A stretch of 64,000 nt of DNA from Eledone cirrhosa (taxonomy: Eukaryota): the NCBI GenBank assembly GCA_964016885.1, contig OZ024741.1, forward strand, positions 239,320,001 through 239,384,000, given 5' to 3'. A program made the position numbers and the translations under genes. The notes beneath the pieces were generated by a model. The model was not told the DNA's origin. It saw only the letters and a list, made by a program, of their open reading frames with translations, and searched no databases. Positions 2,747-59,156 of the stretch are shown here, piece by piece. The first letter of the stretch is position 1. Every line of letters starts with the position of its first letter.

Positions 2747-5120
2747 TCTGGTTGATTTCTGAAGAGATCTGTTCATTGTTGATGTCTTCCAGTCTTCAGG
2801 AGAGTAATGACTTCTAGACTGACTATATCTGTCTATCTCTCCTCGATTACCTGACATCACAGATACACTGTTGTTACCTTGATAGATCAACTGTCTCATC
2901 TCATTACGACATTGGTATGCCTGTTTCTCTTCTATTGTTCTAGCTGAGTTATTTCTCACATTGTTACATCTCACAATACACAATGTTATAGAAACTACAA
3001 TAGCTATAGATACTATCACAGCTGCTACTACAATGATAATCAACAATGTTGCATCTATTGTGTTATCAGTTGGTACATGGACAGCTGTGAACATTGGTGA
3101 TGTCTTGTTACTAACAGTCAGTGTTAAAGAGACACTAGTTGTTGCTGACAGAACTGGAGTACCACTGTCTTTCACAACAAACTCCAGTTGATATAATCCA
3201 GCATCATTTTGGTAAACTGTGCGAGAGTAAGATAAGACACCAGTGAATGAGTCCAGTTTAAATAATTGTCTCTCATTACCTGAAAGGATTTCATACCTGA
3301 GAAAAGCATTCATGTGACTGTCTATATCAGAGGCTTTCAGAAGTGTGATGTCATTCTTACTTTGTGGATGATAGTGGACATCAAGAGTGAAAGGGTCAAC
3401 ACTAGGAAATGTAAAATATGGAGCATTATCATTTTTATCTAATACTTCCACTTCAACATTTACTGTGTTATTTAGAGATGGTGTTCCATTGTCTTTGACT
3501 AAAACCTCAAAATCATAGAAATCTCTGTGTTCTCTGTCTAAAGACTGGTTTGTTGAAATAAAGCCAGAGTTGATAATCTGGAATGGTAGATGATATTGGT
3601 GTTTATTTCTCAGATAGTAACTTAATTCACCTCCCTTACCAACATCTGGGTCTGTAGCATTGATAAAACCAATAGGGAAATTAGCTTTGTCATTCTCATA
3701 GGTAAGGAACTTGAATGTATCTTTGGTAAAGTGTGGTTTTACATCATTCACATCTAACACTTGTATTGAGAGATCTTTATCAGTTTTGAGAGGAGGTAAT
3801 CCTTTATCTTGACAGGAGACAGTAAAGTGATAATGTTCCTGTGTCTCTCTGTCTACTGCTTTCTTTAGAACTATTTTATATTCCTTAGATCCCATTGACT
3901 GTAGTTTGAATGTATCATGTTTAATATCACAGCTGACCTCTCCATTGTGTCCAACATCATTGTCAGTGACCATCACATAAGCAATGAAACTACCAACTTT
4001 GATATCTTCCAGAATGGTAGCTGTGTTGTGAATCTCTGTAGAAATATAGTTGACATCAATATTTGGAGGATTGTTCTGTTGGTTGATAACATTTACCATA
4101 ACAGTTGCTATGGAACTGAGAGGTGGGTTGCCTCCATCTCTGGCCTCTATATACAATTTAAAGAATTTCTTCTTTTCTAAAGCAGAATGTTTGGCTAAGA
4201 ATATTTCTCCAGTTTTCTGATCAACCTTGAAATAATTTATTGATTCTTTAGAGGTTAATGAACTGATAAAATAAGAAGTGTTACCATTTTCTCCAATATC
4301 AGTGTCTTTTGCCAACATGACAATAATTGGTATATTTCTTTTGTGGTTATTTTGTATGGAGATATTGTATGTCTTCTCAGAAAATATTGGTCTGTTATCA
4401 TTCTCATCTTTGACAGTAATGTGTACAGTTAAGACACCTTGTTTGGGTGGACTTCCTCCATCTTTAGCTATCACTTCTATGTCATAACTATCTTTTATCT
4501 CTCTATCTAACTTTCCATCTAACACAATTTCTAATGAGAGCAACCTATCTGCTATCTGAAATGTAGACAAAGAAAACTGATTGCTACTACCTTTCAATTC
4601 ATAATTCACTAGTCTGTTTTGTAAACCAACATCATCATCAATTGCATTGGGTATTGATCGTTTTGTCCCCTTGCCCTCAGTTTCATAAAAATCTAAATTA
4701 ATTTCTTCAACAGGAAACTCAGGTGTATGGTCATTGATGTCTTCTATCATTACCTTAATCTTTAATATCTTTATAAATTTCTCTGCTCTATGAACTGCTA
4801 CCTTAATTGTGTGAGAACATTCTTTCTCAAAACTACACAGAGACTCAGCATCCAGTGTTTGTGTAGTATATATCTTTCCATTACTGGTCACATTAAATAG
4901 CTGTGTCCCCTTCTGTTGTAACTGACTAAATGATAATAATGCAATGTCCTGTAACTGTGAATCAGCAGTAATATCTCCTATATTGATAATTCGATGGTTT
5001 TCTTCTTCCACATGATAAACAATGTCTTCTTTAGAGAGTGAATAGTGAAGTAGAGACAGTAATATCCATATCTGTATTAAAACCATCTTTGTTAGTGGAG
5101 TTAGTTGTGAGTTAAGCAAC
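2747..5120 (-). CDS. Pcdh: Pcdh-A exon 2: signal peptide, 6 cadherin repeats, TM, proximal cytoplasmic domain (likely Met at 5086)
   Basis: 812-aa ORF with DINDH/DENDN/LDRE/DxD motifs, EC1 C-X5-C (LCSFEKEC) and hydrophobic TM; acceptor TTTCCAG at 5121-5127, phase-0 donor AGA|GTAAGT at 2741-2746. Confidence 0.95.
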
Positions 5121-6420
5121 CTGGAAATAAGAAACATAACTTTAATTTACTTGGTAGAATCCAATAATAAATAAATAGTATTCAATTAACTAAATTAAAC
5201 ATATTAAAAAATATATTTCATATATTTGTTACTGCTTTATTCTCATTAATCACCATAACATTCAATATTCTACACAGAAAAAATCATTTAAAGAAACATC
5301 ATTTAATTCCTTCTTTTTGTAAATATTTATTTAGAAATCTCAAGCTTCTCATTTTTATATTTTTGCTGTTAATTAACCCTTAATATATACATTATACATG
5401 ATTTCACATGGAATATGAATAATCAAATTTTCCTTCTTTTCTGCGAGTATTTTGTAATTTGTCGATATTCATTGTAAGATCCTGATTAGAAGATAGCAGT
5501 GAGTGATGGCAATATTAGCAGAGGGACTTCATACATGACACTATGATAACCTATGACACTTGAAAGAATTAAAAACTGTAACACTTGGCACTTTCAATAT
5601 CGTTCAATGTCAGATATAGAATATTACACTGATTTAATTTAGATCTGGGTATATATTACCTGCAAGATACTGACAATAATTGTTATTATACAGACACCGA
5701 ACATTTAGGACTGCATATTTTATTATGTGGAACAGATACAATGTATCAGTGAGTTTTAAGAGATGACCAACAGGGTTAGCATTAGAAACGGTATATAGCC
5801 ATGACCCACAATCTAATAAGACCTGCCCAAGCCATAACAGTAAGGAGAAACAGACATTAGAAACAACACTTATACTAATATGACATAATTAAACTTATTT
5901 ACAGATCTCTTTAGGTCTTATCTAGAAAACATTGTCTATAATTGTTATTTACTCAAAAATTGCATCTTGGCTTACATCATCTTATTTTAAGAGTTACTCT
6001 TTGAAATAAGAGGATGGAGTTTGAGAGGGATTTGACTGCTATTTGAGTAAATCAACTGACCACATAATGGCTCAGATGACACACTGTCACCAGAGTTACT
6101 TTCCCTTAATGTCTAACATCTTAGATAAAACATGATTATATAGTGTATATTGTATGTTTTCTCTCTATATTAATTATGTTTACAGCACACATTTTTCTCA
6201 AAAGTATGAAGGGGAAAACCAATACATGACTTATCTATTGCACCTAATAAAACCTCAATTCAAAATATATTATACACTATAAATGTTCCATGTAAAATGG
6301 AGGTGCAACTGATCTGTCAGTGAGAATTAAACACATGTGTATATGGTATATAACAAGAAAAAATGGTGTACACTTTACTATAGTAAATATATGTTTCATA
6401 TAAACATTATACTATTTAAA

Positions 6421-6560
6421 CAATAATAATAATAATAATGAAATTATTGTGTAAAGTGCTCAGGTGCACTACAACTCGTCAATATAGTACATAGAATAAT
6501 ACACAAATGCCAGGGAAGTACATGTTTGTATGTGTTAGCTGTAGTGTTGGCGGATGTTTC
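6421..6560 (-). mobile_element. Degenerate 3' end of a CR1-like LINE
   Basis: (AAT)n tail followed by ctcaggtgcactacaactc, shared with the better-preserved copy at 54342-54650. Confidence 0.5.
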
Positions 6561-7622: not shown

Positions 7623-8050
7623 ATTCATTGTGTAAAATCCTTTGTTATAAACTGTGAGTTGGTCCCAATGTTCTGTTGTTAATGGTTGTCTATGTCACTG
7701 CTGCTATGGTGTGACAATGGCTTCATGTTGATGGAATAGTGTTGGTAGTGAGTCAGTGGGAACCAGCAGTTCCTCTCAGTCTTTTCTGTGTATGTGTGAT
7801 GTTTACTGAGTATGGGCATATAAGTGTGTGTGTATGTAAAAGAGAGTAAAGGATGGGTGATGCTTACTCCAGCCTCACTCAAATTGGAAAGAAGAGGGAG
7901 ACAGAGACAAAGCACAATATCAGCTCCACTAATAGTCAGCCATAACCATCATCATCATAGTAATAAGTCCAACACCAACATGTCTGATGTAAAGAGACTG
8001 ACAGAAATAACCAATGTTTAAAGGAGATCTTAAATTAACAAAATATTACT
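7623..8050 (-). promoter_or_regulatory. Promoter + leader exon 1 of Pcdh-A (copy 2); uORF1 at 7679-7726 (MKPLSHHSSSDIDNH*)
   Basis: Donor ATGAAT|GTAAGT (7617-7622); Inr-like TCAGT 7805-7809; near-identical to copy 1 but lacks the TATAT of GTCTATATAA. Confidence 0.7.
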
Positions 8051-8527: not shown

Positions 8528-8649
8528 TCAGTTAGTAATGACATCTGGTGTTGAAGGTAACTGTCTCTCTGGAGGTTTCACATATCTATCTTGATATTGT
8601 TGTCTATCACTGTTCACAACTGATGTATCATGTTGACTACCATAGATCC
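8528..8649 (-). CDS. Pcdh: Pcdh-B exon 4 (terminal), ends ...RYVKPPERQLPSTPDVITN*
   Basis: 122 nt, CAG acceptor, TGA stop; near-identical to Pcdh-A exon 4. Confidence 0.88.
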
Positions 8650-8824
8650 CTGGAAAAGAGACAATATTTTAGTGTAGCAATGTTAGAGACAATCACTGTT
8701 ATCAGAAATACTGTAGTAATGACATACACACAGGACTAATTACACAACACTACATAATTACAATTGGTACAATAATTAATAATGAAATAGTGTAATACTA
8801 AATGAGAATAGTTAGTCAACATAC

Positions 8825-8978
8825 CTGTCGTTGCTGGTATTTCTTCATACTGTCTACTTGACCTCTCACTCCAGCACTGTCCACTGCTCTTATGACTGGT
8901 CAATGTATCAGTGGGATAGTTAGAAGATGGTTTGTTGTCTCCATAAGATGTCACCTCTATAGGTTGACTATATTTCTG
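8825..8978 (-). CDS. Pcdh: Pcdh-B exon 3 (cytoplasmic, YEEI exon)
   Basis: 154 nt, CAGCAG acceptor, GTATGT donor. Confidence 0.9.
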
Positions 8979-9954: not shown

Positions 9955-12319
9955 CCTTGTAGATTTCTGAAGAGATCTGTTCATTGTTGATGTCTTCCAG
10001 TCTTCAGGATTGTAATGGCTTCTAGACTGACTATATCTGTCTGATATCTCTCCTTGATTACGTGACATCACAGATACACTGTTGTTACCTTGATAGATCA
10101 ACTGTCTCATCTCATTATGACATTGGTATGCCTGTTTCTCTTCTGTTGTTCTAGCTGAGTTATTTCTCACATTGTTACATCTCACAATACACAATGTTAT
10201 AGAAACCACAATAGCTATAGATACTATCACAGCTGCTACTACAATGATAATCAACAATGTTGCATCTATTGTGTTATCAGTTGGTACATGGACAGCTGTG
10301 AACATTGGTGATGTCTTGTTACTAACAGTCAGTGTTAAAGAGACACTAGTTGTTGCTGACAGAACTGGAGTACCACTGTCTTTCACAACAAACTCCAGTT
10401 GATATGATCCAGCATCATTTTGGTAAACTGTGCGAGAGTAAGATAAGACACCAGTGAATGAGTCCAGTTTAAATAATTGTCTCTCATTACCTGAAAGGAT
10501 TTCATACCTGAGAAAAGCATTCATGTGACTGTCTATATCAGAGGCTTTCAGAAGTGTGATGTCATTCTTACTTTGTGGATGATAGTGGACATCAAGAGTG
10601 AAAGGGTCAACACTAGGAAATGTAAAATATGGAGCATTATCATTTTTATCTAATACTTCCACTTCAACATTCACTGTGTTATTTAGAGATGGTGTTCCAT
10701 TGTCTTTGACTAAAACCTCAAAATCATAGAAATCTCTGTGTTCTCTGTCTAAAGATTGGTTTGTTGAAATAAAGCCAGAGTTGATAATCTGGAATGGTAG
10801 ACGATATTGGTGTTTATTTCTCAGATAATAACTTAATTCACCTCCCTTACCAACATCTGGGTCTGTAGCATTGATAAAACCAATAGGGAAATTAGCTTTG
10901 TCATTCTCATAGGTAAGGAACTTGAATGTATCTTTGGTAAAGTGTGGTTTTACATCATTCACATCTAACACTTGTATTGAGAGATCTTTATCAGTTTTGA
11001 GAGGAGGTAATCCTTTATCTTGACAGGAGACAGTAAAGTGATAATGTTCCTGTGTCTCTCTGTCTACTGCTTTCTTTAGAACTATTTTATATTCTTTAGA
11101 TCCCATTGACTGTAGTTTGAATGTATCATGTTTGATATGACAGCTGACCTCTCCATTGTGTCCAACATCATTGTCAGTGACCATCACATAAGCAATGAAA
11201 CTACCAACTTTGATATCTTCCAGAATGGTAGCTGTGTTGTGATTCTCTGTAGAAATATAGTTGACATCAATATTTGGAGGATTGTTGTGTTGGTTGATAA
11301 CATTTACTGTAACAGTTGCTATGGAACTGAGAGGAGGGGTGCCCCCATCCCTAGCCTCTATAAATAATTCATAAACAACTCCTTGTAAATCTCTGTTTTC
11401 TTTTATAAAAATCTCTCCAGTGTCTGGTTTCAATTGAAAATGTTTACTATCCATGTCTGATGTCATTGGACTAAAATAATATAATATTCTGCTATTGTAC
11501 CCACTATCAGAATCCTCTGCTGATATTATAACAATTGGTGTGTTGCTTTTATGTGTTTTTGCCACAGATATATTATATTTCCTTTTTGAAAAGACGGGTC
11601 GATTATCATTTTCATCTTCGACTATAAGCTTTACATTCAACACAGTCTGCTTTGCAGGAACTCCACCATCTTCTGCAATAACTTCTACATTGTATATTTC
11701 TTTTACCTCTCTGTCTAACTTTTCTTGGAGAACAATATCAAGGTATGACACCCCATCAGCACTTTTGAAAACTTCCAGAGAAAAGGAGTGATTAGATTTT
11801 TGTAATTTATAATTAATTAATCTGTTTTTAAAACTGACATCTTTGTCAATGGCATTTGGAATGGATTTTTTCATTCCTTTGCCATCTCCTTCTCTAAAGT
11901 GTAAAGTTATTTCTTTCTCAGGAAACTCAGGTTGATGGTCATTGATGTCTTCTATTATTATTTTAACTTTTAAAATTCTTTCAAAAGTTTTCTCTTTATG
12001 AACAGCAACTTTAACAATTTTAGAACATTCCTTATTATATCTACACAGTGACTCAGCATCTATTGTTTGAACAGTGTATATTTTCCCTGTCTGAGTAACA
12101 TTAAATAATTCTCTCCCCTTCTGATGCAGTTGATTAAATGTAACCATTTTCAGATCGTCTGGTGAAAAGGAGTTCAAAAACTGTTTATTAGTGGCAATAG
12201 ATCCTATATATGTAACAGGACTGTTTTCTTCTTTCACCTGGTAAGTGAGGTTTAGACAGTAGTAACAATGAATTATCAATGATAAAAGCCAGAGAACTCT
12301 CAACATCTTTAACATTTCA
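9955..12319 (-). CDS. Pcdh: Pcdh-B exon 2 (EC1-6, TM; Met at 12315)
   Basis: 804-aa cadherin ORF; acceptor TTTTTTTACAG ending at 12320, donor AGG|GTAAGT. Confidence 0.95.
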
Positions 12320-13560
12320 CTGTAAAAAAAAGTAAAGCCACTATTCAATAAATTCTGTATAAAATTATATCTTCACTTAATGTCACAATACATTTCAAGT
12401 AATAACACCTTAGAATTAATGTATATACTTGTGAATAAGTTGTTCTGGTAGATAAATCACATTTCCATTTTACATACAACATTTACAATGTACCATATAT
12501 TTTGAGTTGAGGTCTTGTAGGGCAGTAGATAGGGTTTTTACACATCATGTTTTCATGGGAAATGGTTTGACTTATACACAAGTATATATATTATATCTCT
12601 CATCTACAAAACAATTCAATTATTGAACAAATGAAAAATGAAATAACAAAAGAGAAGACCAGAATAAAAGCCCTACAAACATGAATCAAAGACAAGGAGC
12701 CAATACAATAATTGACTTCATTAATACTGAAATAACATTAATTTCGAAACAGCCTCCTAATTTACAATGGGAGCACTAGTCTGTCCACCAGGGTCGCAGA
12801 GCAGCCCCCATTTGTTTATAATAGTGAGAGATGGGCAAAGCAAGAGAGACGGAGGCAGTGACAATGGGAATTTGATTCCATTATGTTCAGACCCAATATA
12901 TACATATCTATTTATTTACCACACCACAAATATATACACATATAACAAATATGATTAACCAACTCAGTAGTTGATTAAAATACAGGGTGAGTCATAAGTA
13001 ACCAGGTAGACCAACGTTTATATTCCAAATTATCATATTTACTAAAATTCTGGTCATAGAGTACAAAATCGTAAAAATACATCAAACAAAAATATAATTA
13101 ATAATTTCTAAGTGGAAGAATAGGAAACACTCAGACTGAACTGTAGCTTATGTAATGTATAATTTGGAAAGTATGACAGGTAAGTGTTAAAAGTGTTGGA
13201 TTAAGGACTCAAGGGTCATAATTTTGAACCAAATCCCAAATGTATTACAAGTTCAGTCAGCAATGTGAATGTGTTAGAGAGAAAGAGGCAAGAGAGAGAG
13301 AGACAGAGAAAGTAAGCATGTTGAGGGTCTATTTCTGAAAAGACATTAGATAATAAATATGTAGATATTTGTGAAGTGACTTACAGACAGAATCAATACA
13401 GAGAAATACAAGGAAGACATTTTTGTCATAGATTCTAGTAAAAACTATAAATGGCATGGAAATTTATTCCAAGTTAAATATTATTAAAAATCTATTGAAA
13501 AGACAGCTAATATAGAAATTACTGGATATACAATTTGGTTTTCTACAAATAGTTGTTTAA

Positions 13561-14413: not shown

Positions 14414-14900
14414 ATTCATTGTGTGTAAAAAATCCTTTGTTATAAACTGTGAGTTGGTCCCAATGTTCTGTTAATGGTTGTCTGTGTCACTGCTGCTATG
14501 GTGTGACAATGGCTTCATGTTGATGGAATAGTGTTGGTAGTGAGTCAGTGGGAACCAGCAGTTCCTTTCAGTCTTTTGTGTGTATGTGTGATGTTTACTG
14601 AGTGTGAGTGAGAGAGAGAGAAGGATGGGTGATGCTTACTCCAGCCTCACTCAGACAAGATGATGCTTTCCCCTCTCACAGAAGAGGAGTGGGAGAGAGA
14701 GGTAGGGAATGCTTACTCCAGCACAACTTAAGTTAGATGTTATGTTTCCCCTCAGAAAGAGAGAGTGGGAGAAGGGAGGGGATGTAAATACAATATATCA
14801 GCTCCACTAACAGTCAGCCATAATATGTCTATATAATACTAACATGTCTGATGTAGAGAGACTGACATAGAAATACTGAGAAGATAGAGGTTATATTAAC
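14414..14900 (-). promoter_or_regulatory. Promoter + leader exon 1 of Pcdh-B (copy 3); uORF1 at 14471-14518
   Basis: Donor ATGAAT|GTAAGT (14408-14413); Inr-like 14597-14601; the ATGCTTACTCCAGC...TTTCCCCTC module is duplicated (~14632 and ~14710). Confidence 0.7.
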
Positions 14901-15219: not shown

Positions 15220-15332
15220 TTAACTGACATCTGGTGTTGAAGGTAACTGTCTCTCTGGAGGTTTCACATATCTGTCTTGGTAATGGTCTCTCTCATTGTT
15301 GCTTGAGACATCAGGTGGGACACCATAGATTC
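15220..15332 (-). CDS. Pcdh: Pcdh-C exon 4: GIYGVPPDVSSNNERDHYQDRYVKPPERQLPSTPDVS*
   Basis: TTTCAG acceptor, phase 1, 113 nt to TAA. Confidence 0.88.
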
Positions 15333-16674: not shown

Positions 16675-16825
16675 CTGACATTGCTGGTATTTCTTCATAC
16701 TGTCTACTTGACCTTTCACTCCAGCACTGTCCACTACTCTTACGACTGGTCAATGTATCAGTGGGATAGTTAGAAGATGGTCTGTTGTCTCCATAAGATG
16801 TCACCTCTATAGGTTGACTGTATTT
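16675..16825 (-). CDS. Pcdh: Pcdh-C exon 3
   Basis: 151 nt; the upstream CAG of the NAGNAG is mutated to CTG so the second AG must be used; donor G|GTAAAA; frame preserved. Confidence 0.88.
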
Positions 16826-18129: not shown

Positions 18130-20534
18130 CTTTGTGGACTTTTGAAGAGATCTGTTCATTGTTGATGTCTTCCAGTCTTCAGGATAGTAATGACTTCTAG
18201 ACTGACTATATCTGTCTGATATCTCTCCTCGATTACCTGACATCACAGATACACTGTTGTTACCTTGATAGATCAACTGTCTCATCTCATTACGACATTG
18301 GTATGCCTGTTTCTCTTCTGTTGTTCTAGCTGAGTTATTTCTTACATTGTTACATCTCACAATACACAATGTTATAGAAACCACAATAGCTATAGATACT
18401 ATCACAGCTGCTACTACAATGATAATCAACAATGTTGCATCTATTGTGTTATCAGTTGGTACATGGACAGCTGTGAACATTGGTGATGTCTTGTTACTAA
18501 CAGTCAGTGTTAAAGAGAGACTAGTTGTTGCTGACAGAACTGGAGTACCACTGTCTTTCACAACAAACTCCAGTTGATATGATCCGGCATCATTTTGGTA
18601 AACTGTGCGAGAGTAAGATAAGACACCAGTGAATGAGTCCAGTTTAAATAATTGTCTCTCATTACCTGAAAGGATTTCATACCTGAGAAAAGCATTCATG
18701 TGACTGTCTATATCAGAGGCTTTCAGAAGTGTGATGTCATTCTTACTTTGTGGATGATAGTGAACATCAAGAGTGAAAGGGTCAACACTTGGAAATGTAA
18801 AATATGGAGCATTATCATTTTTATCTAATACTTCCACTTCAACATTCACTGTGTTATTTAGAGATGGTGTTCCATTGTCTTTGACTAAAACCTCAAAGTC
18901 ATAGAAATCTCTGTGTTCTCTGTCTAAAGATTGGTTTGTTGAAATAAAGCCAGAGTTGATAATCTGGAATGGTAGACGATATTGGTGTTTATTTCTCAGA
19001 TAATAACTTAATTCACCTCCCTTACCAACATCTGGGTCTGTAGCATTGATAAAACCAATAGGGAAATTAGCTTTGTCATTCTCATAGGTAAGGAACTTGA
19101 ATGTATCTTTGGTAAAGTGTGGTTTTACATCATTCACATCTAACACTTGTATTGAGAGATCTTTATCAGTTTTGAGAGGAGGTAATCCTTTATCTTGACA
19201 GGAGACAGTAAAGTGATAATGTTCCTGTGTCTCTCTGTCTACTGCTTTCTTTAGAACTATTTTATATTCCTTAGATCCCATTGACTGTAGTTTGAATGTA
19301 TCATGTTTGATATCACAGCTGACCTCTCCATTGTGTCCAACATCATTGTCAGTGACCATCACATAAGCAATGAAACTACCAACTTTGATATCTTCCAGAA
19401 TGGTAGCTGTGTTGTGATTTGGTGTAGAAATATAGTTGACATCAATATTTGGAGGATTGTTGTGTTGATTGATAACATTTACCATAACAGTTGCTATGGA
19501 ACTGAGAGGAGGACTACCTCCATCTCTAGCTTCAATATATAGTTTGAATGTTTCTATTTCATTCAAGTTTGTAAACTTAGCAAAAAATAACTCTCCAGAC
19601 ATTTTATCCAACTTAAAATATTGTCTGTTTTTTTCCAATGTCTTGGGACTGAAATAGTAAGAAATCTTTCCATTTTCACCAATATCCAAATCTTTAGCCG
19701 ATACAACAACAATAGCTTTGTTTTTGCCATGCATTTTCTTTATGGAAATATTGTACAGTTTTTCATGAAATATGGGTAAATTATCATTTGCATCTTGAAC
19801 TTGTATATTTACATTCAAGATACTTTCTTTGGATGGAGTCCCTCCATCCTTAGCAACAACCTCCAAACTATATTGATCCTTCACTTCTCTATTTAATTTA
19901 CTTTCTAGAACAATCTCTAGCCGAGATATTCCATCAGCTCTTTTAGAAACTAACAATGAAAATATTTTCCCATTCTTCTTTAAATGATAACTGATAACAC
20001 TATTTATAACTCCAACATCTTTGTCAATGGCATTTGGGATGGATTTTTTCATTCCTTTGCCATCTCCTTCTCCAAAGTGTAAAGTTATTTCCTTGTCTGG
20101 AAATTCAGGTTGATAGTCATTGATGTCTTCTATAACGACCTTAATTTTTAAAATTTTCAAGAATGTATTCTTTTCATGAACAGCAACTTTAACCTCCCGA
20201 AAACATTCCTTTTCAAAAGTACAAAGAACTTCAGCATCTAATGTTTGTATTGTATAAAGTTTGCCATTTTCAGACACATTAAATAGTTGTGTTCCTTTAA
20301 GTTTCAGTTGATTAAATGTAATATGACCTACGTCTCCAGGTTGAACTGTATCTTGAAATTGTGGATCAGTTGTAATATCCCCAACAAATGTATGTGGTCT
20401 TGTCTCTTCCTTCACCTTGTAAATTATGTTCAAGCCAAGACAGCAGTGGAAGAAGCTAATTAACAAAAATGAAGTCTGCAACATATTTTCTTTTGTTATT
20501 GGAAACATTGAATAAAATCAAATTTTAACAGATT
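18130..20534 (-). CDS. Pcdh: Pcdh-C exon 2 (EC1-6, TM; Met at 20508 or 20484)
   Basis: 818-aa cadherin ORF; poly-T..TTTCAG acceptor ending at 20535; donor AAG|GTAAAT. Confidence 0.95.
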
Positions 20535-24204: not shown

Positions 24205-24575
24205 ATTCATTGTGTAAAAGCCTTTGTTATAAACTGTGAGTTGGTCCCAATGTTCTGTTGTTAATGGTTGTCTGTCACTGCTGCTATGGTGTGACAATGG
24301 CTTCATGTTGATGGAATAGTGTTGGTAGTGAGTCAGTGGGAACCAGCAGTTCCTCTCAGTCTTCTGTGTATGTGTGATGCTTACTGCAATGTGTCTGTGT
24401 AAGTGCTATTTCCAACCTCAGTCAGGCGAGGTAAGGGTGGGTGATGCTTACTTCAGCCCCAGTCAGACTAGATGTGTTTCCTCTCAGTGTAAAGTGAGAG
24501 AAGACAATAATAGCTCCACTAATATTTTTACTTGATAAGACTATATAACACCAATATGTCTGATGTAGAGAGAAT
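24205..24575 (-). promoter_or_regulatory. Promoter + leader exon 1 of Pcdh-C (copy 4); uORF1 frameshifted and extended (24205-24306)
   Basis: Donor ATGAAT|GTAAGT (24199-24204); 2-nt deletion in uORF1; Inr-like site altered. Confidence 0.68.
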
Positions 24576-25164: not shown

Positions 25165-25289
25165 TCAGTTAATTATTATAACATTTGGTGTTGATGGCAA
25201 TTGTTTTTCTGGTGGTTTTACATACCTATCTTGGTTCTCTAGTAGATCACTGCTGGCTGATGTGTTATTAGACTGTATAGCATAGAGTC
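25165..25289 (-). CDS. Pcdh: Pcdh-D exon 4: GLYAIQSNNTSASSDLLENQDRYVKPPEKQLPSTPNVIIIN*
   Basis: TTTTGTAG acceptor, 125 nt to TGA. Confidence 0.85.
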
Positions 25290-25560: not shown

Positions 25561-25696
25561 CTGATACAGCTGGTATTTCTTCATAATATGTACTTGACCT
25601 TTCACTCCAGCATTGATCACTACTCTTGAGACTGGTCACTGTGTCAGTGGGGTAGTTAGAAGATGATGCCACTGCTATTGGTTGACTATATTGCTG
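25561..25696 (-). CDS. Pcdh: Pcdh-D exon 3 (18-nt in-frame deletion; ...SLKSSDQCWSERSSTYYEEIPAVS)
   Basis: TAGCAG acceptor, G|GTAGAG donor, 136 nt. Confidence 0.85.
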
Positions 25697-27422: not shown

Positions 27423-29833
27423 CATTATACATTTTGGTAAACTTCTGTTGATTGCTGATGTATTCCAGTCTTCAGGAGAGTAATGGCTTCTGAACAGACT
27501 ATATCTGTCTGATATCTCTCCTCGATTGCCTGACATCACAGATACACTGTTGTTACCTTGATAGATCAACTGTCTCATCTCATTACGACATTGGTATGCC
27601 TGTTTCTCTTCTGTTGTTCTAGCTGAGTTATTTCTTACATTGTTACATCTCACAATACACAATGTTATAGAAACCACAATAGCTATAGATACTATCACAG
27701 CTGCTACTACAATGATAATCAACAATGTTGCATCTATTGTGTTATCAGTTGGTACATGGACAGCTGTGAACATTGGTGATGTCTTGTTACTAACAGTCAG
27801 TGTTAAAGAGACACTAGTTGATGCTGACAGAACTGGAGTACCACTGTCTTTCACAACAAACTCCAGTTGATATAATCCAGCATCATTTTGGTAAACTGTA
27901 CGTGAGTAAGATAAGACACCAGTGAATGAGTCCAGTTTAAATAACTGTCTCTCATTACCTGAAAGGATTTCATACCTCAGAAGGGCATTTATGTGACTGT
28001 CTAGATCAGAGGCTTCCAGAAGTTTGATGTCATTCTTACTTTGTGGATGATAGTGGACATCAAGGGTGAAAGGGTCAACATTAGGAAATGTAAAATATGG
28101 AGCATTATCATTTTTATCTAATACTTCCACTTCAACATTCACTGTGTTATTTAGAGATGGTGTTCCATTGTCTTTGACAAAAACCTCAAAATCATAGAAA
28201 TCTCTGTGTTCTCTGTCTAAAGATTGGTTTGTTGAAATAAAGCCAGAGTTGATAATCTGGAATGGTAGACGATATTGGTGTTTATTTCTCAGGTAATAAC
28301 TTAATTCACCTCCCTTACCAACATCTGGGTCTGTAGCATTGATAAAACCAATAGGGAAATTAGCTTTGTCATTCTCATAGGTAAGGAACTTGAATGTATC
28401 TTTGGTAAAGTGTGGTTTTACATCATTCACATCTAACACTTGTATTGAGAGATCTTTATCAGTTTTGAGAGGAGGTAATCCTTTATCTTGACAGGAGACA
28501 GTAAAGTGATAATGTTCCTGTGTCTCTCTGTCTACTGCTTTCTTTAGAACTATTTTATATTCCTTAGATCCCATTGACTGTAGTTTGAATGTACCATGTT
28601 TGATATTACAGCTGACCTCTCCATTATGTCCAACATCATTGTCAGTGACCATCACATAAGCAATGAAACTAGCAACTTTGATATCTTCCAGAATGGTAGC
28701 AGTATTGTGATTATGTGTAGAAATAAAATTAACATCAATATTCGGAGACCTGTTGTGTTCGTTGATAACATTTACAATAAGAGTTGCTATGGAACTTAGA
28801 GGAGGAATGCCACTATCTCTGGCTTCTATGAATATTTTCAATGTATCTGTTTTAACTAAATTTGAATATCTAGACAATAAAATTTCTCCACTTGTTTCAT
28901 TTAAGGTAAAATACCTACTTGATATTTCAGATGTGATAGGACTAAAATAGTATGCTACATCACCATTGCTGCCAATATCAAAGTCATGAGCAGATAAAGT
29001 AACTATAGACACAAGTTTTGGATGTGTGCTGTTCACAGTAATTCTATAAGTTTTCTCGGAAAAGATAGGCAAATTGTCATTTTCGTCTGTGATAATTATT
29101 TCAACATTTAGAATTGCTTGTTTGGGGGGAGTTCCTCTATCTTCAGCAATAACCTCAATATTGTAGATAGCCTTAAATTCTCTGTCTAATTTCCTTTCCA
29201 AGTGGATATCTAGGTGAGAAGTTCCATCAGCTCTTTTAAAATCTTTCAAGATAAAGGGATAATTGTTTTTCTTCTTTAACTTGTATGTAATTAAGCGGTT
29301 TTGGCTCCCGACATCATAGTCCATTGCATTTGGAATTGATTTTCTTCTACTTTTGCCATCTGTTTCAGAAAACTGTATGGTTATTTCCTTAACAGGGAAT
29401 TTAGGTGAATGGTCATTGATGTCTTCTATTATGACTTTTATTTTTAGGATTTTTATGAATTGTTTTCCTTTGTGAGCAGCAACATTGATTGTTTCAACAC
29501 AGTCTTTATCAAGAATACAGAGGCTCTCAGCATCCAATGGATTAATAGTGAACATTTTTCCTGGCTTGGTGATATTAAATAGTTGTCTTCCTATCTGTTG
29601 TAGCTGAGTGAATCTAAGTAAATGTCTCTCGTTGTGTTCTAAACTGTCCCAGAGGCCAGAATCTTCAGCAATATCTCCAATGTATGGATTAGCATTGTTT
29701 TCTTCCTCCACAATATAGATAAGCTCTTCATTATAACAACAGCAAATGAAAGACAGGATGATACAGAAATATATTAACATTTTTAGCCAAGTGAGTGAAT
29801 GACTCAACACTCCAAAAAAGTAACTGTCTTCAT
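27423..29833 (-). CDS. Pcdh: Pcdh-D exon 2 (EC1-6, TM; Met at 29780)
   Basis: 798-aa cadherin ORF; acceptor TCTTTCAG ending at 29834; donor ATG|GTAAGT. Confidence 0.95.
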
Positions 29834-38498: not shown

Positions 38499-38850
38499 AT
38501 TCATCATACGTTCCCAATGTTCTGTTAATGGTTGTCTGTGTCACTGCTGCTATGGTGTGACAATGGCTTCATGTTGATGGAATAGTGTTGGTAGTGAGTC
38601 AGTGGGAACCAGCAGTTCCTCTCAGTCTTCTGTGTGTATGTGTGATGTTTACTGAGTGTGAGTGTATATATACAATATATAAGTGTGAAAGAGATAAGGG
38701 AGTGTGGTTCTTACTCTAGTCTCAATCAGACTAGATGATGTGTTTCCCCTCACAGAGGAGAGAAAGGGAGAGAAGACACACAATATCAGTTCCACTAATA
38801 GTTTGCAATAATAAGCCTATATAATACTAACAGCATGTGTGATATAGAGG
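38499..38850 (-). promoter_or_regulatory. Promoter + leader exon 1 of Pcdh-D (copy 5); uORF1 at 38525-38572
   Basis: Donor ATGATGAAT|GTAAGT (38493-38498) retained despite an internal deletion; Inr-like 38651-38655. Confidence 0.68.
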
Positions 38851-39262: not shown

Positions 39263-39381
39263 TCATTGAGTAACAACATCTGGTGTAGCAGGCAACTGTC
39301 TCTCTGGGTTTTTTACATATCTATCTTGGTACTGTTGTCTTTCAGTATTGGCTGGAAAATCTGATTGTATAGAGTAATGTC
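39263..39381 (-). CDS. Pcdh: Pcdh-E exon 4: GHYSIQSDFPANTERQQYQDRYVKNPERQLPATPDVVTQ*
   Basis: TTTTTCAG acceptor, 119 nt to TGA. Confidence 0.87.
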
Positions 39382-40848: not shown

Positions 40849-41002
40849 CTGACATTGCTGGTATTTCTTCATACTGTCTACTTGACCTTTCACTCCAGCA
40901 CTGTCCACTAGTCTTATGACTGGTCAATGTATCAGTGGGATAGTTACAAGATGGTCTGTTGTCTCCATAAGACGTCACCTCTATAGGTTGACTATATTTC
41001 TG
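40849..41002 (-). CDS. Pcdh: Pcdh-E exon 3
   Basis: 154 nt, CAGCAG acceptor, G|GTAAGG donor. Confidence 0.9.
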
Positions 41003-45406: not shown

Positions 45407-47815
45407 CTTCATAGATTTCTGAAGTGTTCTGTTCATTGTTGATGTCGTCCAGTCTTCAGGATAGTAATGACTTCTAGACTGACTATATCTGTCTGATATC
45501 TCTCCTTGATTACCTGACATCACAGATACACTGTTGTTACCTTGATAGATCAACTGTCTCATCTCATTACGACATTGGTATGCCTGTTTCTCTTCTGTTG
45601 TTCTAGCTGAGTTATTTCTCACATTGTTACATCTCACAATACACAATGTTATAGAAACCACAATAGCAATAGATACTATCACAGCTGCTACTACAATGAT
45701 AATCAACAATGTTGCATCTATTGTGTTATCAGTTGGTACATGGACAGCTGTGAACATTGGTGATGTCTTGTTACTAACAGTCAGTGTTAAAGAGACACTA
45801 GTTGTTGCTGACAGAACTGGAGTACCACTGTCTTTCACAACAAACTCCAGTTGATATGATCCAGCATCATTTTGGTAAACTGTGCGAGAGTAAGATAAGA
45901 CACCAGTGAATGAGTCCAGTTTAAATAACTGTCTCTCATTACCTGAAAGGATTTCATACCTGAGAAAAGCATTCATGTGACTGTCTATATCAGAGGCTTT
46001 CAGAAGTGTGATGTCATTCTTACTTTGTGGATGATAGTGGACATCAAGAGTGAAAGGGTCAACACTAGGAAATGTAAAATATGGAACATTATCATTTTTA
46101 TCTAATACTTCCACTTCAACATTTACTGTGTTATTTAGAGATGGTGTTCCATTGTCTTTGACTAAAACCTCAAAGTCATAGAAATCTCTGTGTTCTCTGT
46201 CTAAAGACTGGTTTGTTGAAATAAAACCAGAGTTGATAATCTGGAATGGTAGATGATATTGGTGTTTATTTCTCAGATGATAACTTAATTCACCTCCCTT
46301 ACCAACATCTGGGTCTGTAGCATTGATAAAACCAATAGGGAAATTAGCTTTGTCATTCTCATAGGTAAGGAACTTGAATGTATCTTTGGTAAAGTGTGGT
46401 TTTACATCATTCACATCTAACACTTGTATTGAGAGATCTTTATCAGTTTTGAGAGGAGGTAATCCTTTATCTTGACAGGAGACAGTAAAGTGATAATGTT
46501 CCTGTGTCTCTCTGTCTACTGCTTTCTTTAGAACTATTTTATATTCTTTAGATCCCATTGATTGTAGTTTGAATGTATCATGTTTGATATTACAGCTGAC
46601 CTCTCCATTGTGTCCAACATCATTGTCAGTGACCATCACATAAGCAATGAAACTACCAACTTTGATATCTTCCAGAATGGTAGCTGTGTTGTGATTTGGT
46701 GTAGAAATATAGTTGACATCAATATTCGGAGGATTGTTGTGTTCATTGATAACATTAACATGAACAGCTGCTATAGAACTCAGTGGGGGATTTCCACCAT
46801 CTCTGGCTTCTATATACAGTGTATACATTATCTTTTCTCTAATATTAATTTCATCAATCAAAAACATATCTCCAGTTGTTTTATTCAAGCCAAAATATGT
46901 TTTGTCGATATCAGAAGTCATTGGACTAAAATAATAAGAGACTATCCCATTTTTTCCACTGTCTTTATCCTTTGCAGCAAGAGTTAATATTGGTTTGTAT
47001 ATTTTATAAATATTTTGAATAGAAATGTTGTATATATCATTAGAGAAGACAGGTAAATTATCATTCTCATCTCCTACTGTTATTTTCACCTCTAAGAGAC
47101 ACTCTTTTGGTGGAGTCCCTCCATCTTTAGCTGTTACTTGAATATGGTAAATGTCTTCTAACTCTCTGTCTAATTTTTCATTCAAAACAATTTCCAATCT
47201 AGATATTCCATCAACTCTTTTAGAAACAGACAATGCAAATTTTGCAGAATCATTTTTTAAATCATATGTAATCAATCTATTTTGATATCCCACATCTTTA
47301 TCAACAGCATTAGGTATGGCCTTTTTCATACCTCTACCATCTCCTTCCCTAAACCCTAGAGTGATGTCTTTCTCAGGAAACTCAGGTTGGTGATCATTGA
47401 TGTCTTCTATTATGACTTTAATTTTTAATATTTGTATAAATGTTTTATGTTTACGGATAGCAATTTTCACAGTTCTATAACATTCAGTATTATACCGACA
47501 CAAAGCTTCAGCATCCAGAGTCTCAGCTGTGTACAATTTTCCTGCTTTTGTGACATTAAATAGCTGTGTTCCTTTTTGTATTAGTTGATTAAATGTAAAC
47601 AGACTGGCATCACCAGTTAAGATAGTTTTGGTGAAATGAGGTTGAATAGCAATGTCACCTATATAAGAATAAGGCAAATTCTCTTCCTTTACATGAAAGA
47701 TAATGTCTTTACATAAACAACAATGTATACACAATAGAAGTATGTAAACTGTTGCAAACATGTTTGACATTTGATGAAGAAGGGCTTTTATATAATAAAA
47801 TTTTATCAACTGCAT
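45407..47815 (-). CDS. Pcdh: Pcdh-E exon 2 (EC1-6, TM; Met at 47815, 47770 or 47761)
   Basis: Cadherin ORF; acceptor TTTCCTTTCAG ending at 47816, so the first 36 codons of the 865-aa ORF are intronic; donor AAG|GTAAGT. Confidence 0.95.
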
Positions 47816-50594: not shown

Positions 50595-50629
<35 letters not shown>

Positions 50630-52848: not shown

Positions 52849-53620
52849 ATTGACTGTGTGTTGGTCCCAATGTTCTGTTGTTAATGGTTGTCTGTGGACA
52901 ATGGCTTCATGTTGATGGAATAGTGTTGGTAGTGAGTCAGTGGGAACCAGCAGTTCCTCTCAGTCTTCTCAATGTATTTGTGATGTTTACTGAGTGTGTG
53001 TGTGTATATATATATACATATGTGTGTATGTGTAAGAGAGAGAGAGAAAAGGATGGGTGATGCTTACTCCAGCCTCACACAGACTAGATGTTATTTCCTT
53101 CACAGAGAAAAAGGAGAGAGAGAAGACAATAACAGCTCCACTAACAGTTAGCCATAATATGTCTATATAATACCCGCCTTACCTAAATATATAGTAAAAC
53201 CTACTCCAGCCAGTAGGCATCTCTAACAAATACACCCCGTCCCACCACCACCACCCCGTTCTATGTAAAGTTATGTTGGTGCCGCGCCATCCAGGCCGAA
53301 ACAAATGAGATCGTGTAGGTGTCACGACAAAAAAACACACAGTCCACGCTGTAATGTGGCCGTGTAGGCAACACGGTAAAAACCTCCCAGACCCACACTG
53401 TAAATGTGGTTGGTGTTAGGAAGGGCATCCAACTGTAGAAAACCTGCCAGGCAGTCCTATGCGAGCAAGACAATCACTCTTGCCTCAAGTGGGACTACCC
53501 CCGTCCAAACCCATGCAAGCGTGGAACACGGACGTTAAACGTTGATGATGATGATGAATACCAACATGTCTGATGTAGAGGGACTGACATAGAAATAGAG
53601 AATGTTTTAAGATGTTATAT
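52849..53620 (-). promoter_or_regulatory. Promoter + leader exon 1 of Pcdh-E (copy 6), split by a retroposon; uORF1 at 52881-52910 (MKPLSTDNH*)
   Basis: Donor GTCAAT|GTAAGT (52843-52848); Inr-like 52989-52993; conserved motifs resume at 53557. Confidence 0.68.
53175..53556 (+). mobile_element. Family-3 retroposon inserted in the Pcdh-E promoter block
   Basis: (GAT)n tail, TSD AATACC (53169-53174 / 53557-53562); removing it restores GTCTATATAATACCAACATGTCTGATGTAG. Confidence 0.85.
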
Positions 53621-54208: not shown

Positions 54209-54324
54209 TTAGTTGTTTATAACATCAGGAACAGCCGGGAGTTGTCTTTCTGGAGGTTTGACATATCTGTCTTGGTACAGTTTGTCAGTGTTGGCTGAGC
54301 TATCCTGTTGTGTACCATAGATAA
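54209..54324 (-). CDS. Pcdh: Pcdh-F exon 4: VIYGTQQDSSANTDKLYQDRYVKPPERQLPAVPDVINN*
   Basis: TTTCAG acceptor, 116 nt to TAA. Confidence 0.87.
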
Positions 54325-54341
54325 CTGAAACATAGATGATA

Positions 54342-54650
54342 ATAATAATAATGAAATATTGTGTACAATGCTCAGGTGCACTACAACTCATCAAAAAGTG
54401 AATGTATAGTACATAGGGTAATGTACAAACGTCAGGAAAATGAACAGTGCATGAGTCATGATATACACGTGTGCATGTGTATGGAAGGGGTACATCAGGT
54501 GTAGTTTGGGCGTATTTCGGGAAGCATGAGGGTTTTAAAGGATGCTGTGTCTCGGCAGCTAACAACTGACGCAGGCAGTTTGTTCCATGCTTCAGCAACT
54601 TTGAGCGTGAAAAAATGTTTACGAAAGTCATGGGAGCTGTGCTGACTTTG
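54342..54650 (-). mobile_element. 5'-truncated CR1-like LINE
   Basis: Minus-strand translation FRKHFFTLKVAEAWNKLPASVVSCRDTASFK (CR1-type FF..V..WN.LP C-terminus), (ATT)n tail, TSD TAGATGATA (54333-54341 / 54651-54659). Confidence 0.82.
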
Positions 54651-54770: not shown

Positions 54771-54924
54771 CTGACATTGCTGGTATCTCTTCATACTGTC
54801 TGCTTGACCTTTCACTCCAGCACTGTCCACTACTCTTACGACTGGTCAATGTATCAGTGGGATAGTTAGAAGATGGTCTGTTGTCTCCATAAGATGTCAC
54901 CTCTATAGGTTGACTATATTTCTG
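54771..54924 (-). CDS. Pcdh: Pcdh-F exon 3
   Basis: 154 nt, CAGCAG acceptor, G|GTAAGA donor. Confidence 0.9.
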
Positions 54925-55667: not shown

Positions 55668-55911
55668 TTGGCAGTATCGGTAGAGGGTCGGACGCCATGC
55701 TTTCCAGCATAGTTACGTCCCTTTACGATCTGAGTTCAAATCCCGCCGAGGTTGACTTTGCCTTTCATCCTTACGGGGTCGATAAAATAAAGTACCAGTA
55801 ATGCACTGGGTATTTGCTGGCCTTGTGCCAAAAGTAGAAACAATTATTAATAAAGCACCAGTAATGCACTGGGTAATTGCTGGCCTTGTGCCAAAAGTAG
55901 AAACAATTATT
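55668..55911 (+). mobile_element. Family-1 SINE with duplicated 3' end, nested in a degenerate TTAA-type MITE (~55562-56057)
   Basis: Reverse complement of the 40353-40533 copy; accagtaatgcactggg..agaaacaattatt occurs twice. Confidence 0.8.
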
Positions 55912-56745: not shown

Positions 56746-59156
56746 CCTTGTGGATTTTTGGAGAGATCTGTTCATTGTTGATATCTTCCAGTCTTCAGGA
56801 TAGTAATGGCTTCTAGACTGACTATATCTGTCTGATATCTCTCCTTGATTACCTGACATCACAGATACACTGTTGTTACCTTGATAGATCAACTGTCTCA
56901 TCTCATTACGACATTGGTATGCCTGTTTCTCTTCTGTTGTTCTAGCTGAATTATTTCTTACATTGTTACATCTCACAATACACAATGTTATAGAAACCAC
57001 AATAGCTATAGATACTATCACAGCTGCTACTACAATGATAATCAACAATGTTGCATCTATTGTGTTATCAGTTGGTACATGGACAGCTGTGAACATTGGT
57101 GATGTCTTGTTACTAACAGTCAGTGTTAAAGAGACACTAGTTGTTGCTGACAGAACTGGAGTACCACTGTCTTTCACAAGAAACTCCAGTTGATATGATC
57201 CAGCATCATTTTGGTAAACTGTACGAGAGTAAGATAAGACACCAGTGAATGAGTCCAGTTTAAATAATTGTCTCTCATTACCTGAAAGGATTTCATACCT
57301 GAGAAAAGCATTCATGTGACTATCTATATCAGAGGCTTTCAGAAGTGTGATGTCATTCTTACTTTGTGGATGATAGTGGACATCAAGAGTGAAAGGGTCA
57401 ACACTAGGATATGTAAAATATGGAGCATTATCATTTTTATCTAATACTTCCACTTCAACATTCACTGTGTTATTTAGAGATGGTGTTCCATTGTCTTTGA
57501 CTAAAACCTCAAAGTCATAGAAATCTCTGTGTTCTCTGTCTAAAGATTGGTTTGTTGAAATAAAGCCAGAGTTGATAATCTGGAATGGTAGACGATATTG
57601 GTGTTTATTTCTCAGATAATAACTTAATTCACCTCCCTTACCAACATCTGGGTCTGTAGCATTGATAAAACCAATAGGGAAATTAGCTTTGTCATTCTCA
57701 TAGGTAAGGAACTTGAATGTATCTTTGGTAAAGTGTGGTTTTACATCATTCACATCTAACACTTGTATTGAGAGATCTTTATCAGTTTTGAGAGGAGGTA
57801 ATCCTTTATCTTGACAGGAGACAGTAAAGTGATAATGTTCCTGTGTCTCTCTGTCTACTGCTTTCTTTAGAACTATTTTATATTCTTTAGATCCCATTGA
57901 CTGTAGTTTGAATGTATCATGTTTAATATTACAGCTGACCTCTCCATTGTGTCCAACATCATTGTCAGTGACCATCACATAAGCAATGAAACTACCAACT
58001 TTGATATCTTCCAGAATGGTAGCTGTGTTGTGATTCTGTGTAGAAATATAGTTGACATCAATATTTGGAGGATTGTTGTGTTGGTTGATAACATTTACCA
58101 TCACAGTTGCTATGGAACTGAGAGGTGGGTTGCCTCCATCTCTGGCTTCAATATATAATTTTAAAGAGTTCTTTGTCTCAATTTCTAATGATTGTGTTAA
58201 GAATATTTTTCCACTATATTCTTCTAAATTAAAATATCTTTTCATTTTCTCTGAAGTTTTCCTTGCAAAATAGAAAGCTATATTACCATTCCTACCAATA
58301 TCTAAATCATTGGCAGATAATGTCACTACTGGAATATTCTTTTTATGTTTATGTTCTATGGAGACATTATAGATACTTTGGGAAAATTGTGGTCTGTTGT
58401 CATTTTCATCTTTCACAGATATATTAACATTTAAAATACTTTGCTTTGGTGGAGTTCCTCCATCTTTAGCAATGACCTCAATATTATAGCTGTCTTTCTT
58501 TTCTCTGTCTAATTTATCTTCTAAGATAATTTCTAATGTTGACATTCCACCTGCTTGTTTGGCAACTGCCAAAGAAAAATGCCCATTATCTTTTTTTAAC
58601 TCATATTTAATTAAGCTGTTTTGATATCCAATGTCTTTGTCAGCAGCATTGGGTATTGATAGTTTTGATCCTTTGCTGTCTCGCTCTGAAAACTGTATAT
58701 TTACTTGTTCAGTTGGAAACTCAGGTTGGTGGTCATTGATGTCTTCTATTATGACTTTAATTTTTAATATCTTCATAAATGTCTTGGATTTGTGAACAGC
58801 AACTTTCACTATTTCAAAACATTCTTTCTCATAACTACACACAGACTCAGCATCCAATGTCTGAACAGTGTACAGTTTACCTGTTTTTGTCACATTGAAC
58901 AATTGTTCTCCCTTTTGTTGTAGTTGACTAAATGTAATTAAATCCTTTTTCTTTAAGAAGGAGTTATCTGATGTCTGTAAGTCAGGAGCAATGTCCCCTA
59001 TATAAGTATAGGGATTACTCTCTTCTTTAACATGGTATGTGATATGTTCACTTAGATAACAGTGGAAGAAAGTCAGTAAAATACACAGAAATAACAACAT
59101 CTCTGCTCTTGATGTTAATACAGTATACAGAGGAAACACAGCTTCAAATATTTAAT
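56746..59156 (-). CDS. Pcdh: Pcdh-F exon 2 (EC1-6, TM; Met at 59100)
   Basis: 802-aa cadherin ORF; acceptor TTTATTTCAG ending at 59157; donor AGG|GTAAGT. Confidence 0.95.

What the first reader, a model, noticed from the sequence alone, without database searches (positions are those of the whole stretch)
2747..59156. Variable EC1-EC3 / homogenised EC4-EC6-TM within a single exon
Seen: in all six genes the ~1.35 kb from ...PPLSSIA/NNPPNIDVNY to ...STMNRSLQK is almost identical even at synonymous sites, while the signal peptide and EC1-EC3 differ extensively. Identity ends at the splice donor (except A/B). The 5' boundary lies inside the exon at the end of EC3 (~4150, 11350, 19530, 28830, 46810, 58150). 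Established: gene conversion homogenises membrane-proximal repeats of vertebrate clustered Pcdhs, where EC2-3 carry specificity and EC5-6 mediate promiscuous cis-dimers. Inference: a variable/constant receptor code is maintained here by concerted evolution rather than by shared constant exons. EC4, a trans-binding partner of EC1 in vertebrates, is invariant.
Basis: partly seen in the sequence, partly recalled or inferred. Interest (0 to 1): 0.8.

Follow-up and report, generated by a model that had tools for sequence, protein, structure and literature searches.

The report
Octopus protocadherins homogenised except recognition domains
Six neighbouring octopod protocadherin genes are nearly identical in their membrane-near half but keep old, gene-specific outer domains, likely because DNA copying between the genes erases differences except where selection would preserve distinct cell-recognition tags, a pattern known from vertebrate brains and here arisen separately.

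Summary
Real, not an assembly artefact. Six tandem octopod protocadherin genes have dS about 1.4-1.6 in EC1-EC3 but 0.02-0.12 from EC4 to the cytoplasmic stub; no two are identical. All six have EC1-3 orthologs in Octopus or Argonauta, four in the same gene order, while their EC4-TM parts group by lineage (AU p 1.7e-5 and 5.7e-45). This is concerted evolution. Corrections: identity resumes in each gene's own exon 2 and in a likely non-coding leader exon; exon 3 is ortholog-specific again; in the larger expansions EC1 is homogenised too, leaving an EC2-EC3 island (O. sinensis 97/75/76/99/100/99%). The gradient recurs in other octopod arrays and in non-octopod, cuttlefish-like arrays. The vertebrate cis-dimer residue V560 is K/R here, so vertebrate-type cis pairing is not supported. 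Vertebrate domain-biased conversion is known; for cephalopods I found only whole-gene remarks (two key papers unavailable). Recognition function is inferred, untested. New variant of a known kind.

The parts
2747..5120 (-). Gene A large exon (ATG 5086); variable EC1-3 4070-5023, homogenised EC4-stub 2753-4069
1508..1661 (-). Gene A exon 2, homogenised
   Evidence: spliced joint
1213..1334 (-). Gene A exon 3 to stop
7623..7808 (-). Likely non-coding leader exon of gene A (Inr-like CAGTAA to GTAAGT donor), homogenised
   Evidence: role inferred
9955..12354 (-). Gene B large exon (ATG 12315); EC1-3 11281-12249, constant 9961-11280
8825..8978 (-). Gene B exon 2
8528..8649 (-). Gene B exon 3 to stop (near-identical to A)
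14414..14600 (-). Likely leader exon of gene B
18130..20534 (-). Gene C large exon (ATG 20484); EC1-3 19456-20427, constant 18136-19455
16675..16825 (-). Gene C exon 2
15220..15332 (-). Gene C exon 3 to stop
24205..24386 (-). Likely leader exon of gene C
27423..29833 (-). Gene D large exon (ATG 29780); EC1-3 28749-29723, constant 27429-28748; least homogenised gene (32 of 77 variable sites private to it)
25561..25696 (-). Gene D exon 2, divergent (about 75%), escaped homogenisation
25165..25289 (-). Gene D exon 3 to stop
38499..38654 (-). Likely leader exon of gene D
45407..47815 (-). Gene E large exon (ATG 47770 or 47761); EC1-3 46733-47704, constant 45413-46732
40849..41002 (-). Gene E exon 2
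39263..39381 (-). Gene E exon 3 to stop
   Evidence: E-type splice letters
52849..52992 (-). Likely leader exon of gene E
56746..59156 (-). Gene F large exon (ATG 59100); EC1-3 58072-59043, constant 56752-58071; member of the clade expanded in Octopus and Argonauta
54771..54924 (-). Gene F exon 2
54209..54324 (-). Gene F exon 3 to stop
61402..61585 (-). Likely leader exon of gene F
62269..62387 (-). Exon 3 of a seventh gene (G) whose other exons lie beyond the window; 98% to C exon 3
311..494 (-). Likely leader exon of the next gene, beyond the left end of the window

Best explanation
These are six complete tandem octopod protocadherin genes whose EC4-EC6, transmembrane, cytoplasmic stub and exon 2 group by lineage while EC1-EC3 group by ortholog, which recurrent gene conversion between paralogs most likely produced, with selection likely keeping EC2-EC3 distinct as predicted trans-recognition surfaces. 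Shown: the split in dS, the opposite trees, mosaic variation in the constant block, staggered tract ends, each gene's own downstream exons. Inferred: conversion (plus occasional unequal crossover in the constant block) is the default for every exon that stays alignable, including the likely leader exon; tracts that overwrite EC2-EC3 would merge two specificities and are purged; EC1 is homogenised in young copies and has escaped in old ones. Predicted, untested: each protein binds itself through an antiparallel EC1-4 dimer, with conserved EC1:EC4 giving affinity and EC2:EC3 giving specificity, on a shared stalk and shared intracellular signalling.
For: dS about 25-fold lower in EC4-stub than in EC1-3. 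All 6 of 6 genes have EC1-3 orthologs; the fused O. sinensis model P0132 has units in the window's order F,E,D,C. Over 19 quartets, ortholog:species-pattern sites are 1012:25 in EC1-EC3 up to strand E, 2:342 in EC4-TM, 15:116 in the stub, 107:17 in exon 3 (sites reused across quartets). AU tests on 18 sequences reject lineage grouping for EC1-3 (p 1.7e-5) and ortholog grouping for EC4-stub (p 5.7e-45). 106 of 153 pairs of informative sites in the constant block are incompatible. EC2-3 island: O. sinensis 19 units 97/75/76/99/100/99, Argonauta 20 units 88/72/67/99/98/99, second Argonauta array 10 units 86/69/68/97/99/99; third O. sinensis set of 8 82/67/65/85/100/98; 4 of 4 non-octopod groups EC2 64-80, EC6 95-99. 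21 reciprocal-best Argonauta-Octopus pairs outside this subfamily are flat, 84-91% over EC1-6, so EC2-3 is not loosely constrained by nature. EC1 position matching gammaB3 F86 is I (I/V in one set) in all six sets. Vertebrate EC2/EC3 specificity and EC1/EC4 affinity: PMC5001838.
Against: No binding, expression or structure data for these proteins. Paralog dN/dS in EC1-3 is about 0.2, so no direct sign of positive selection; no ortholog DNA was available for site tests. Variation at 14 hand-mapped vertebrate EC2:EC3 interface positions beat matched controls in 1 of 6 sets only (O. sinensis, 0 of 5000 draws; others p 0.10-1.0). No GC rise in converted DNA (GC4 0.20-0.22 vs 0.20-0.25). Even distant paralogs show a gradient (EC1-3 52-56%, EC4-6 60-72%), which a neutral divergence threshold could amplify. 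In some non-octopod groups EC3 is also homogenised (89-94%) and in others EC4 only partly (78-85%). No Octopus ortholog of B and no Argonauta ortholog of C or E was among the proteins fetched.
Confidence: 0.72

Rival explanations
1. Conversion is real but its boundary is neutral: EC1-3 drifted past the identity threshold for recombination long ago, while the better-conserved EC4-6 stayed convertible; the variable part is no selected code.
For: Old gradient among distant paralogs; dN/dS about 0.2; gene D drifting out of exon 2 conversion; interface enrichment in 1 of 6 sets.
Against: In young expansions EC2-3 is an island of 60-76% between EC1 at 97% and EC4 at 99%; single-copy-like ortholog pairs are flat across domains; the same island recurs in separate arrays.
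Confidence: 0.17
2. Only unequal crossover or a one-off spread of one 3' half, without ongoing conversion, made the genes chimeric.
For: A and B share 84-100% from EC4 through introns, exon 3 and the next leader element to the window edge.
Against: For the other 14 of 15 pairs the introns do not align though exons on both sides are near-identical; exon 3 still follows orthology; constant-block sites are mosaic; three lineages each fixed their own version.
Confidence: 0.04
3. Conversion is templated by reverse-transcribed mRNA, which is why identity follows exons.
For: Homogenised tracts coincide with exons: leader, 3' half of the large exon, exon 2.
Against: No intron lost in 6 of 6 genes; no 3' polarity, the last exon is least homogenised; identity fades before the donor and includes intronic acceptor bases.
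Confidence: 0.04
4. Purifying selection, including on synonymous sites or RNA structure, holds EC4-TM constant.
For: Constant part is well conserved between lineages, 90-95% amino acids.
Against: Paralogs within a lineage (96-100%) are closer than orthologs between lineages, with many lineage-fixed replacements.
Confidence: 0.02
5. Assembly or polishing collapse made the copies look alike.
For: Near-identical kilobase repeats are prone to it; raw long reads were not seen.
Against: No pair identical, each gene has 3-32 private sites; same split in separately assembled O. sinensis, O. vulgaris and Argonauta with their own residues; short-read contigs from 4 runs merge the constant part into long high-depth pieces carrying the majority letters of B-F, while intron pieces of run X2 match gene A with 0 differences at low depth (depth is only a hint).
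Confidence: 0.01

Closest known systems
Vertebrate clustered protocadherins with domain-biased gene conversion (Noonan et al. 2004, not read; summarised with a dS table in PMC4978886)
   Same: Tandem head-to-tail genes, one large exon for EC1-6 plus TM, highest dS in EC2-3, lowest in EC5-6. Zebrafish Pcdh2ab1-12 is the nearest match (dS 1.67/1.13/2.91/1.13/0.12/0.01).
   Different: Independent expansion; EC4 is homogenised here (0.06 vs 1.1-2.6 in mouse and zebrafish); no shared constant exons, each gene carries and homogenises its own exon 2; likely separate leader exon; V560 equivalent is K/R; no CTCF-like motif excess.
Coleoid protocadherin sub-arrays (PMC9068888; PMC6339937)
   Same: These genes are members: best hits 85-87% to O. 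sinensis and Argonauta protocadherins, multi-exon, same direction, full-gene duplicates; both papers suggest gene conversion.
   Different: The passages read treat similarity at whole-gene level; none gives a per-domain split, hidden cross-genus orthology of EC1-3, or an EC2-3 island.
Vertebrate non-clustered delta protocadherins
   Same: Best PDB match to EC1-4 is 6VG1 (E 1.3e-94; recalled as a delta-2 protein), which also has K at the 560 position; reported not to interact in cis and to share the EC1-4 dimer.
   Different: Delta genes are dispersed and not a homogenised array; delta-1 cytoplasmic motifs are reported absent in octopus.

Membership tests
Coleoid clustered protocadherins | Six cadherin repeats, TM, tandem same-strand multi-exon genes, closest to cephalopod protocadherins | tested here: met
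Concerted evolution by paralog gene conversion | Converted part groups by lineage, unconverted part by ortholog | tested here: met
   (O. vulgaris and O. sinensis are not separated from each other)
Concerted evolution by paralog gene conversion | Low synonymous divergence, mosaic sites and staggered tract ends | tested here: met
Concerted evolution by paralog gene conversion | Raised GC3 in converted tracts (recalled for vertebrates) | tested here: not met
Vertebrate clustered protocadherins (alpha/beta/gamma) | Common descent from the vertebrate cluster | not tested
   No tree with vertebrate sequences built; literature reports independent expansion
Vertebrate clustered protocadherins (alpha/gamma) | Variable exons spliced to shared constant exons | tested here: not met
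   6 of 6 genes have their own exons 2 and 3
Vertebrate clustered protocadherins | EC6 cis-dimer surface (gammaB7 Y532, L555, V560, A570) | tested here: not met
   V560 equivalent K/R in 103 of 104 and 118 of 118 proteins; L555 equivalent D/E/N (alignment has a gap there, less sure); 532 F/Y and 570 A kept. Sequence test only; another cis surface is not excluded
Vertebrate clustered protocadherins | Homophilic antiparallel EC1-4 trans dimer with EC2:EC3 specificity | tested here: inconclusive
   Variation concentrates in EC2-3; interface-position test positive in 1 of 6 sets; no complex or fold prediction was available
Vertebrate clustered protocadherins | CTCF-bound promoter element and stochastic promoter choice | tested here: inconclusive
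   A recalled CTCF-like pattern gave 7 hits against 7.0 expected, none in the elements; a different conserved element precedes each gene; single-cell choice not testable here

The most novel reading that the evidence does not exclude
Octopods and, separately, squid/cuttlefish evolved a vertebrate-like neuronal identity code in EC2-EC3 on a stalk, tail and promoter-leader kept interchangeable by gene conversion instead of shared exons, and it works without the vertebrate cis-dimer zipper; conversion also hides old one-to-one orthologs, so 'lineage-specific' cephalopod protocadherin expansions are partly a tree artefact.
Probability: 0.35. Interest if true: 0.85.

Novelty: new variant of a known kind. 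Interest (0 to 1): 0.6.

Why it matters
Whether cephalopod protocadherins act as self-recognition tags is open: PMC6339937 says nothing is known of their adhesion specificity. These arrays are natural chimera series with one constant backbone and different EC2-3 (or EC1-3), which names the domains to swap in an assay. They show convergence with vertebrates down to which domains resist homogenisation, while lacking the shared exons and a key cis residue. They also warn that whole-gene trees of these genes mix two histories.

Tried and rejected
No whole genome was held, so genes beyond the window were not seen. The careful tree did not finish and its constant tree failed; FastTree and IQ-TREE fast searches replaced them. 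The 50%-representative search returned mostly Fat/Dachsous-sized proteins; 7 of 8 full-length candidates were Octopus, one unnamed. Rfam: 0 matches. CTCF-like motif: chance level. GC-bias signal: none. Interface-position enrichment: 5 of 6 sets not significant. Earlier scan findings: none. Albertin 2015 and Wang and Ragsdale 2017 were not held; the one supplement file searched for PMC9068888 had no hits.
Full report
Observation. The window holds six long ORFs, all on the minus strand, A (left) to F (right), each a cadherin-repeat protein. Best database hits are Octopus sinensis (86-87%) and Argonauta hians (85%) protocadherins, so the source is an octopod other than those; I did not identify it further. 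Codon alignment confirms the split: mean dS 1.57, 1.46, 1.39 in EC1, EC2, EC3 against 0.063, 0.043, 0.053, 0.019 and 0.124 in EC4, EC5, EC6, stalk/TM and cytoplasmic stub (15 pairs; 4 saturated domain pairs omitted). Pairs differ at 17-55 bases over about 1.32 kb; none is identical. Change points of identity lie inside the exon and are staggered from EC3 strand F to early EC4.

Anatomy. Every gene has its own exon 2 and exon 3 with canonical splice sites and an open spliced frame; contigs of runs X1 and X7 show family members spliced across both introns. Exon 3 of a seventh gene lies at 62269-62387. Exon 2 is homogenised among A, B, C, E, F (1-4 synonymous differences in about 30 sites) but not D; exon 3 is divergent (pS 0.5-0.7) except within A/B (0.04), C/G (0.13) and, partly, between those pairs (0.20-0.34). 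First introns do not align except A/B and shared interspersed repeats. A non-coding element occurs 7 times, once per intergenic gap (26-mer exact 7 times, 0 in 100 shuffles), 93-99% identical over aligned bases, from an initiator-like CAGTAA to a GTAAGT donor; an AATAAA or ATTAAA lies between it and the previous stop in 7 of 7 cases, and each large exon has an acceptor 34-56 nt before its ATG. I infer a leader exon and promoter of the next gene; this is not shown by reads. A and B are 84-100% alike from EC4 through both introns, exon 3 and the next leader element to the window edge, though their EC1-3 differ at dS 1.28: this fits an unequal crossover within the constant block followed by continued exchange (inference; Argonauta has two A-like genes).

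The decisive test. EC1-3 trees pair every window gene with a gene of another genus or species: A with O. sinensis P0030 and Argonauta P0025/26, B with Argonauta P0027, C, D, E, F with units 4, 3, 2, 1 of the fused O. sinensis model P0132 (the window's own order), D, E, F also with O. vulgaris, D with Argonauta P0033 (support 1.0 for B-E, 0.999 for A, 0.96 for F). The EC4-stub tree puts the six window genes in one clade (1.0) and the Argonauta copies, bar the divergent P0034, in another (0.98); O. vulgaris and O. sinensis intermix. On 18 sequences (6 window, 12 orthologs; Argonauta P0014 taken as F's ortholog and its exon 3), quartet sites favour orthology 1012:25 in EC1-3 up to strand E, lineage 342:2 in EC4-TM and 116:15 in the stub, and orthology again 107:17 in exon 3; exon 2 is 18:8 for orthology, the 18 involving D by inspection (19 quartets, columns reused). 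AU tests reject the lineage tree for EC1-3 (p 1.7e-5) and the ortholog tree for EC4-stub (p 5.7e-45). Within the window 106 of 153 pairs of informative constant-block sites are incompatible with one tree. This is recurrent exchange between paralogs, running separately in three lineages.

Artefact. Rejected: private variants in each gene, the same split with different fixed residues in other assemblies, and short-read contigs that merge the constant part into long high-depth pieces (X1: 726 nt at depth 293 against 14 for an EC1-3 piece; X2: intron pieces identical to gene A at depth 8-9) (the tool warns depth is no copy number). Raw long reads were not seen.

Generality. In the expanded F-like part of this array EC1 is homogenised too: O. 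sinensis 19 units EC1-6 97/75/76/99/100/99%, Argonauta 20 units 88/72/67/99/98/99% (units hand-picked from annotated models, likely duplicates dropped). A second Argonauta array (10) gives 86/69/68/97/99/99, a third O. sinensis set (8) 82/67/65/85/100/98. Four groups of unnamed proteins (13, 15, 7, 5, grouped by equal contig length) fall outside the octopod clade, are nearer to cuttlefish proteins (62-65% vs 56-59%), and give EC2 64-80 against EC6 95-99 and TM 96-100; EC3 and EC4 vary between groups. Databases list one protein per 90% cluster, which removes the most similar pairs. Twenty-one reciprocal-best Argonauta-Octopus pairs outside this subfamily are flat at 84-91% (a few of these belong to other arrays).

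Mechanism. Shown: opposite histories of the two halves. Inferred: conversion homogenises each exon that remains alignable, and EC2-3 resists it because overwriting would merge specificities. In vertebrates EC1-4 dimers are antiparallel, EC1/EC4 gives non-selective affinity and EC2/EC3 specificity (PMC5001838, passages; bioRxiv 10.1101/493106, passages; PMC5106212 argues specificity is spread over the whole interface, passages). That fits a constant EC4, a conserved hydrophobic EC1 position matching F86, and an EC2-3 island. Against: dN/dS about 0.2 among the six, and interface-equivalent positions more variable than matched controls in only 1 of 6 sets. The constant half is thus better read as a shared stalk and tail than as a vertebrate-type cis module.

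Prior work. Domain-biased conversion is established for vertebrate clusters (PMC4978886, passages and section 17); mouse and zebrafish EC4 is not homogenised there. For cephalopods, PMC9068888 (passages, one supplement file) and PMC6339937 (passages, part 1 of section 7) mention conversion at whole-gene level only. Searches listed no per-domain analysis; PMC10084454, PMC7811963 and PMC13218726 (passages) add none. Albertin 2015, Wang and Ragsdale 2017 and Noonan 2004 were not read, and the first two may already describe it.

Verdict. Real; cause established as concerted evolution (about 0.95); selective and functional reading likely but untested (0.72 overall). New variant of a known kind; interest 0.6.

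Noticed in passing
window 311-494, 7623-7808, 14414-14600, 24205-24386, 38499-38654, 52849-52992, 61402-61585 (minus): Seven near-identical non-coding elements ending in a splice donor, with shorter conserved motifs about 100-200 nt upstream; likely homogenised promoter plus leader exon of each gene, a candidate analogue of the vertebrate conserved promoter element.
   Followed up: partly
window 1-4120 vs about 7300-11330: A and B share 84-100% identity through introns, 3' region and the next leader element; suggests a duplication with break points in the constant block and predicts an A-like gene left of the window.
   Followed up: partly
exon 2 of all genes, e.g. window 1508-1661: Conserved YEEIP motif, resembling the Src-family SH2 ligand pYEEI (recalled, untested); present also in distant octopod paralogs.
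   Followed up: no
exon 2 acceptors, e.g. window 1659-1664: Tandem CAGCAG acceptor in A, B, E, F (TAGCAG in D, single CAG in C) giving plus/minus Gln isoforms, matching 877/876-aa isoform pairs in O. sinensis.
   Followed up: no
O. bimaculoides proteins P0001, P0057, P0136, P0149, P0163-P0166: Models of this subfamily keep EC1-3 but have no full EC4-stub match, as expected if the constant block collapsed in that assembly; may explain why the split was overlooked (inference).
   Followed up: partly
window 62269-62387 and 15220-15332: Exon 3 of genes G and C, 47 kb apart, are 98% identical with unrelated flanks; this is the majority exon 3 type of the F-like expansion in Octopus.
   Followed up: partly
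window 16020-16240, 20830-21480, 26000-26810, 35850-36090, 40340-40550, 55670-55910, 63850-64000: Dispersed 120-220 nt repeat family at 88-98% identity on both strands, SINE-like; not identified.
   Followed up: no
window 32859-33719: 25-bp minisatellite, 34 copies, 94% matches, in the likely first intron of gene D.
   Followed up: no
window 6423-6517 vs 54336-54439: About 100 nt of intron-like sequence upstream of gene A's large exon is 79% similar to the intron just before F exon 3; unexplained.
   Followed up: no
O. sinensis P0121, P0132, P0143, P0148, P0348; O. vulgaris P0153, P0155: Public annotations fuse 2-7 tandem genes into single 'Fat/dachsous-like' or uncharacterised proteins, so gene counts for these arrays are likely understated.
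   Followed up: partly
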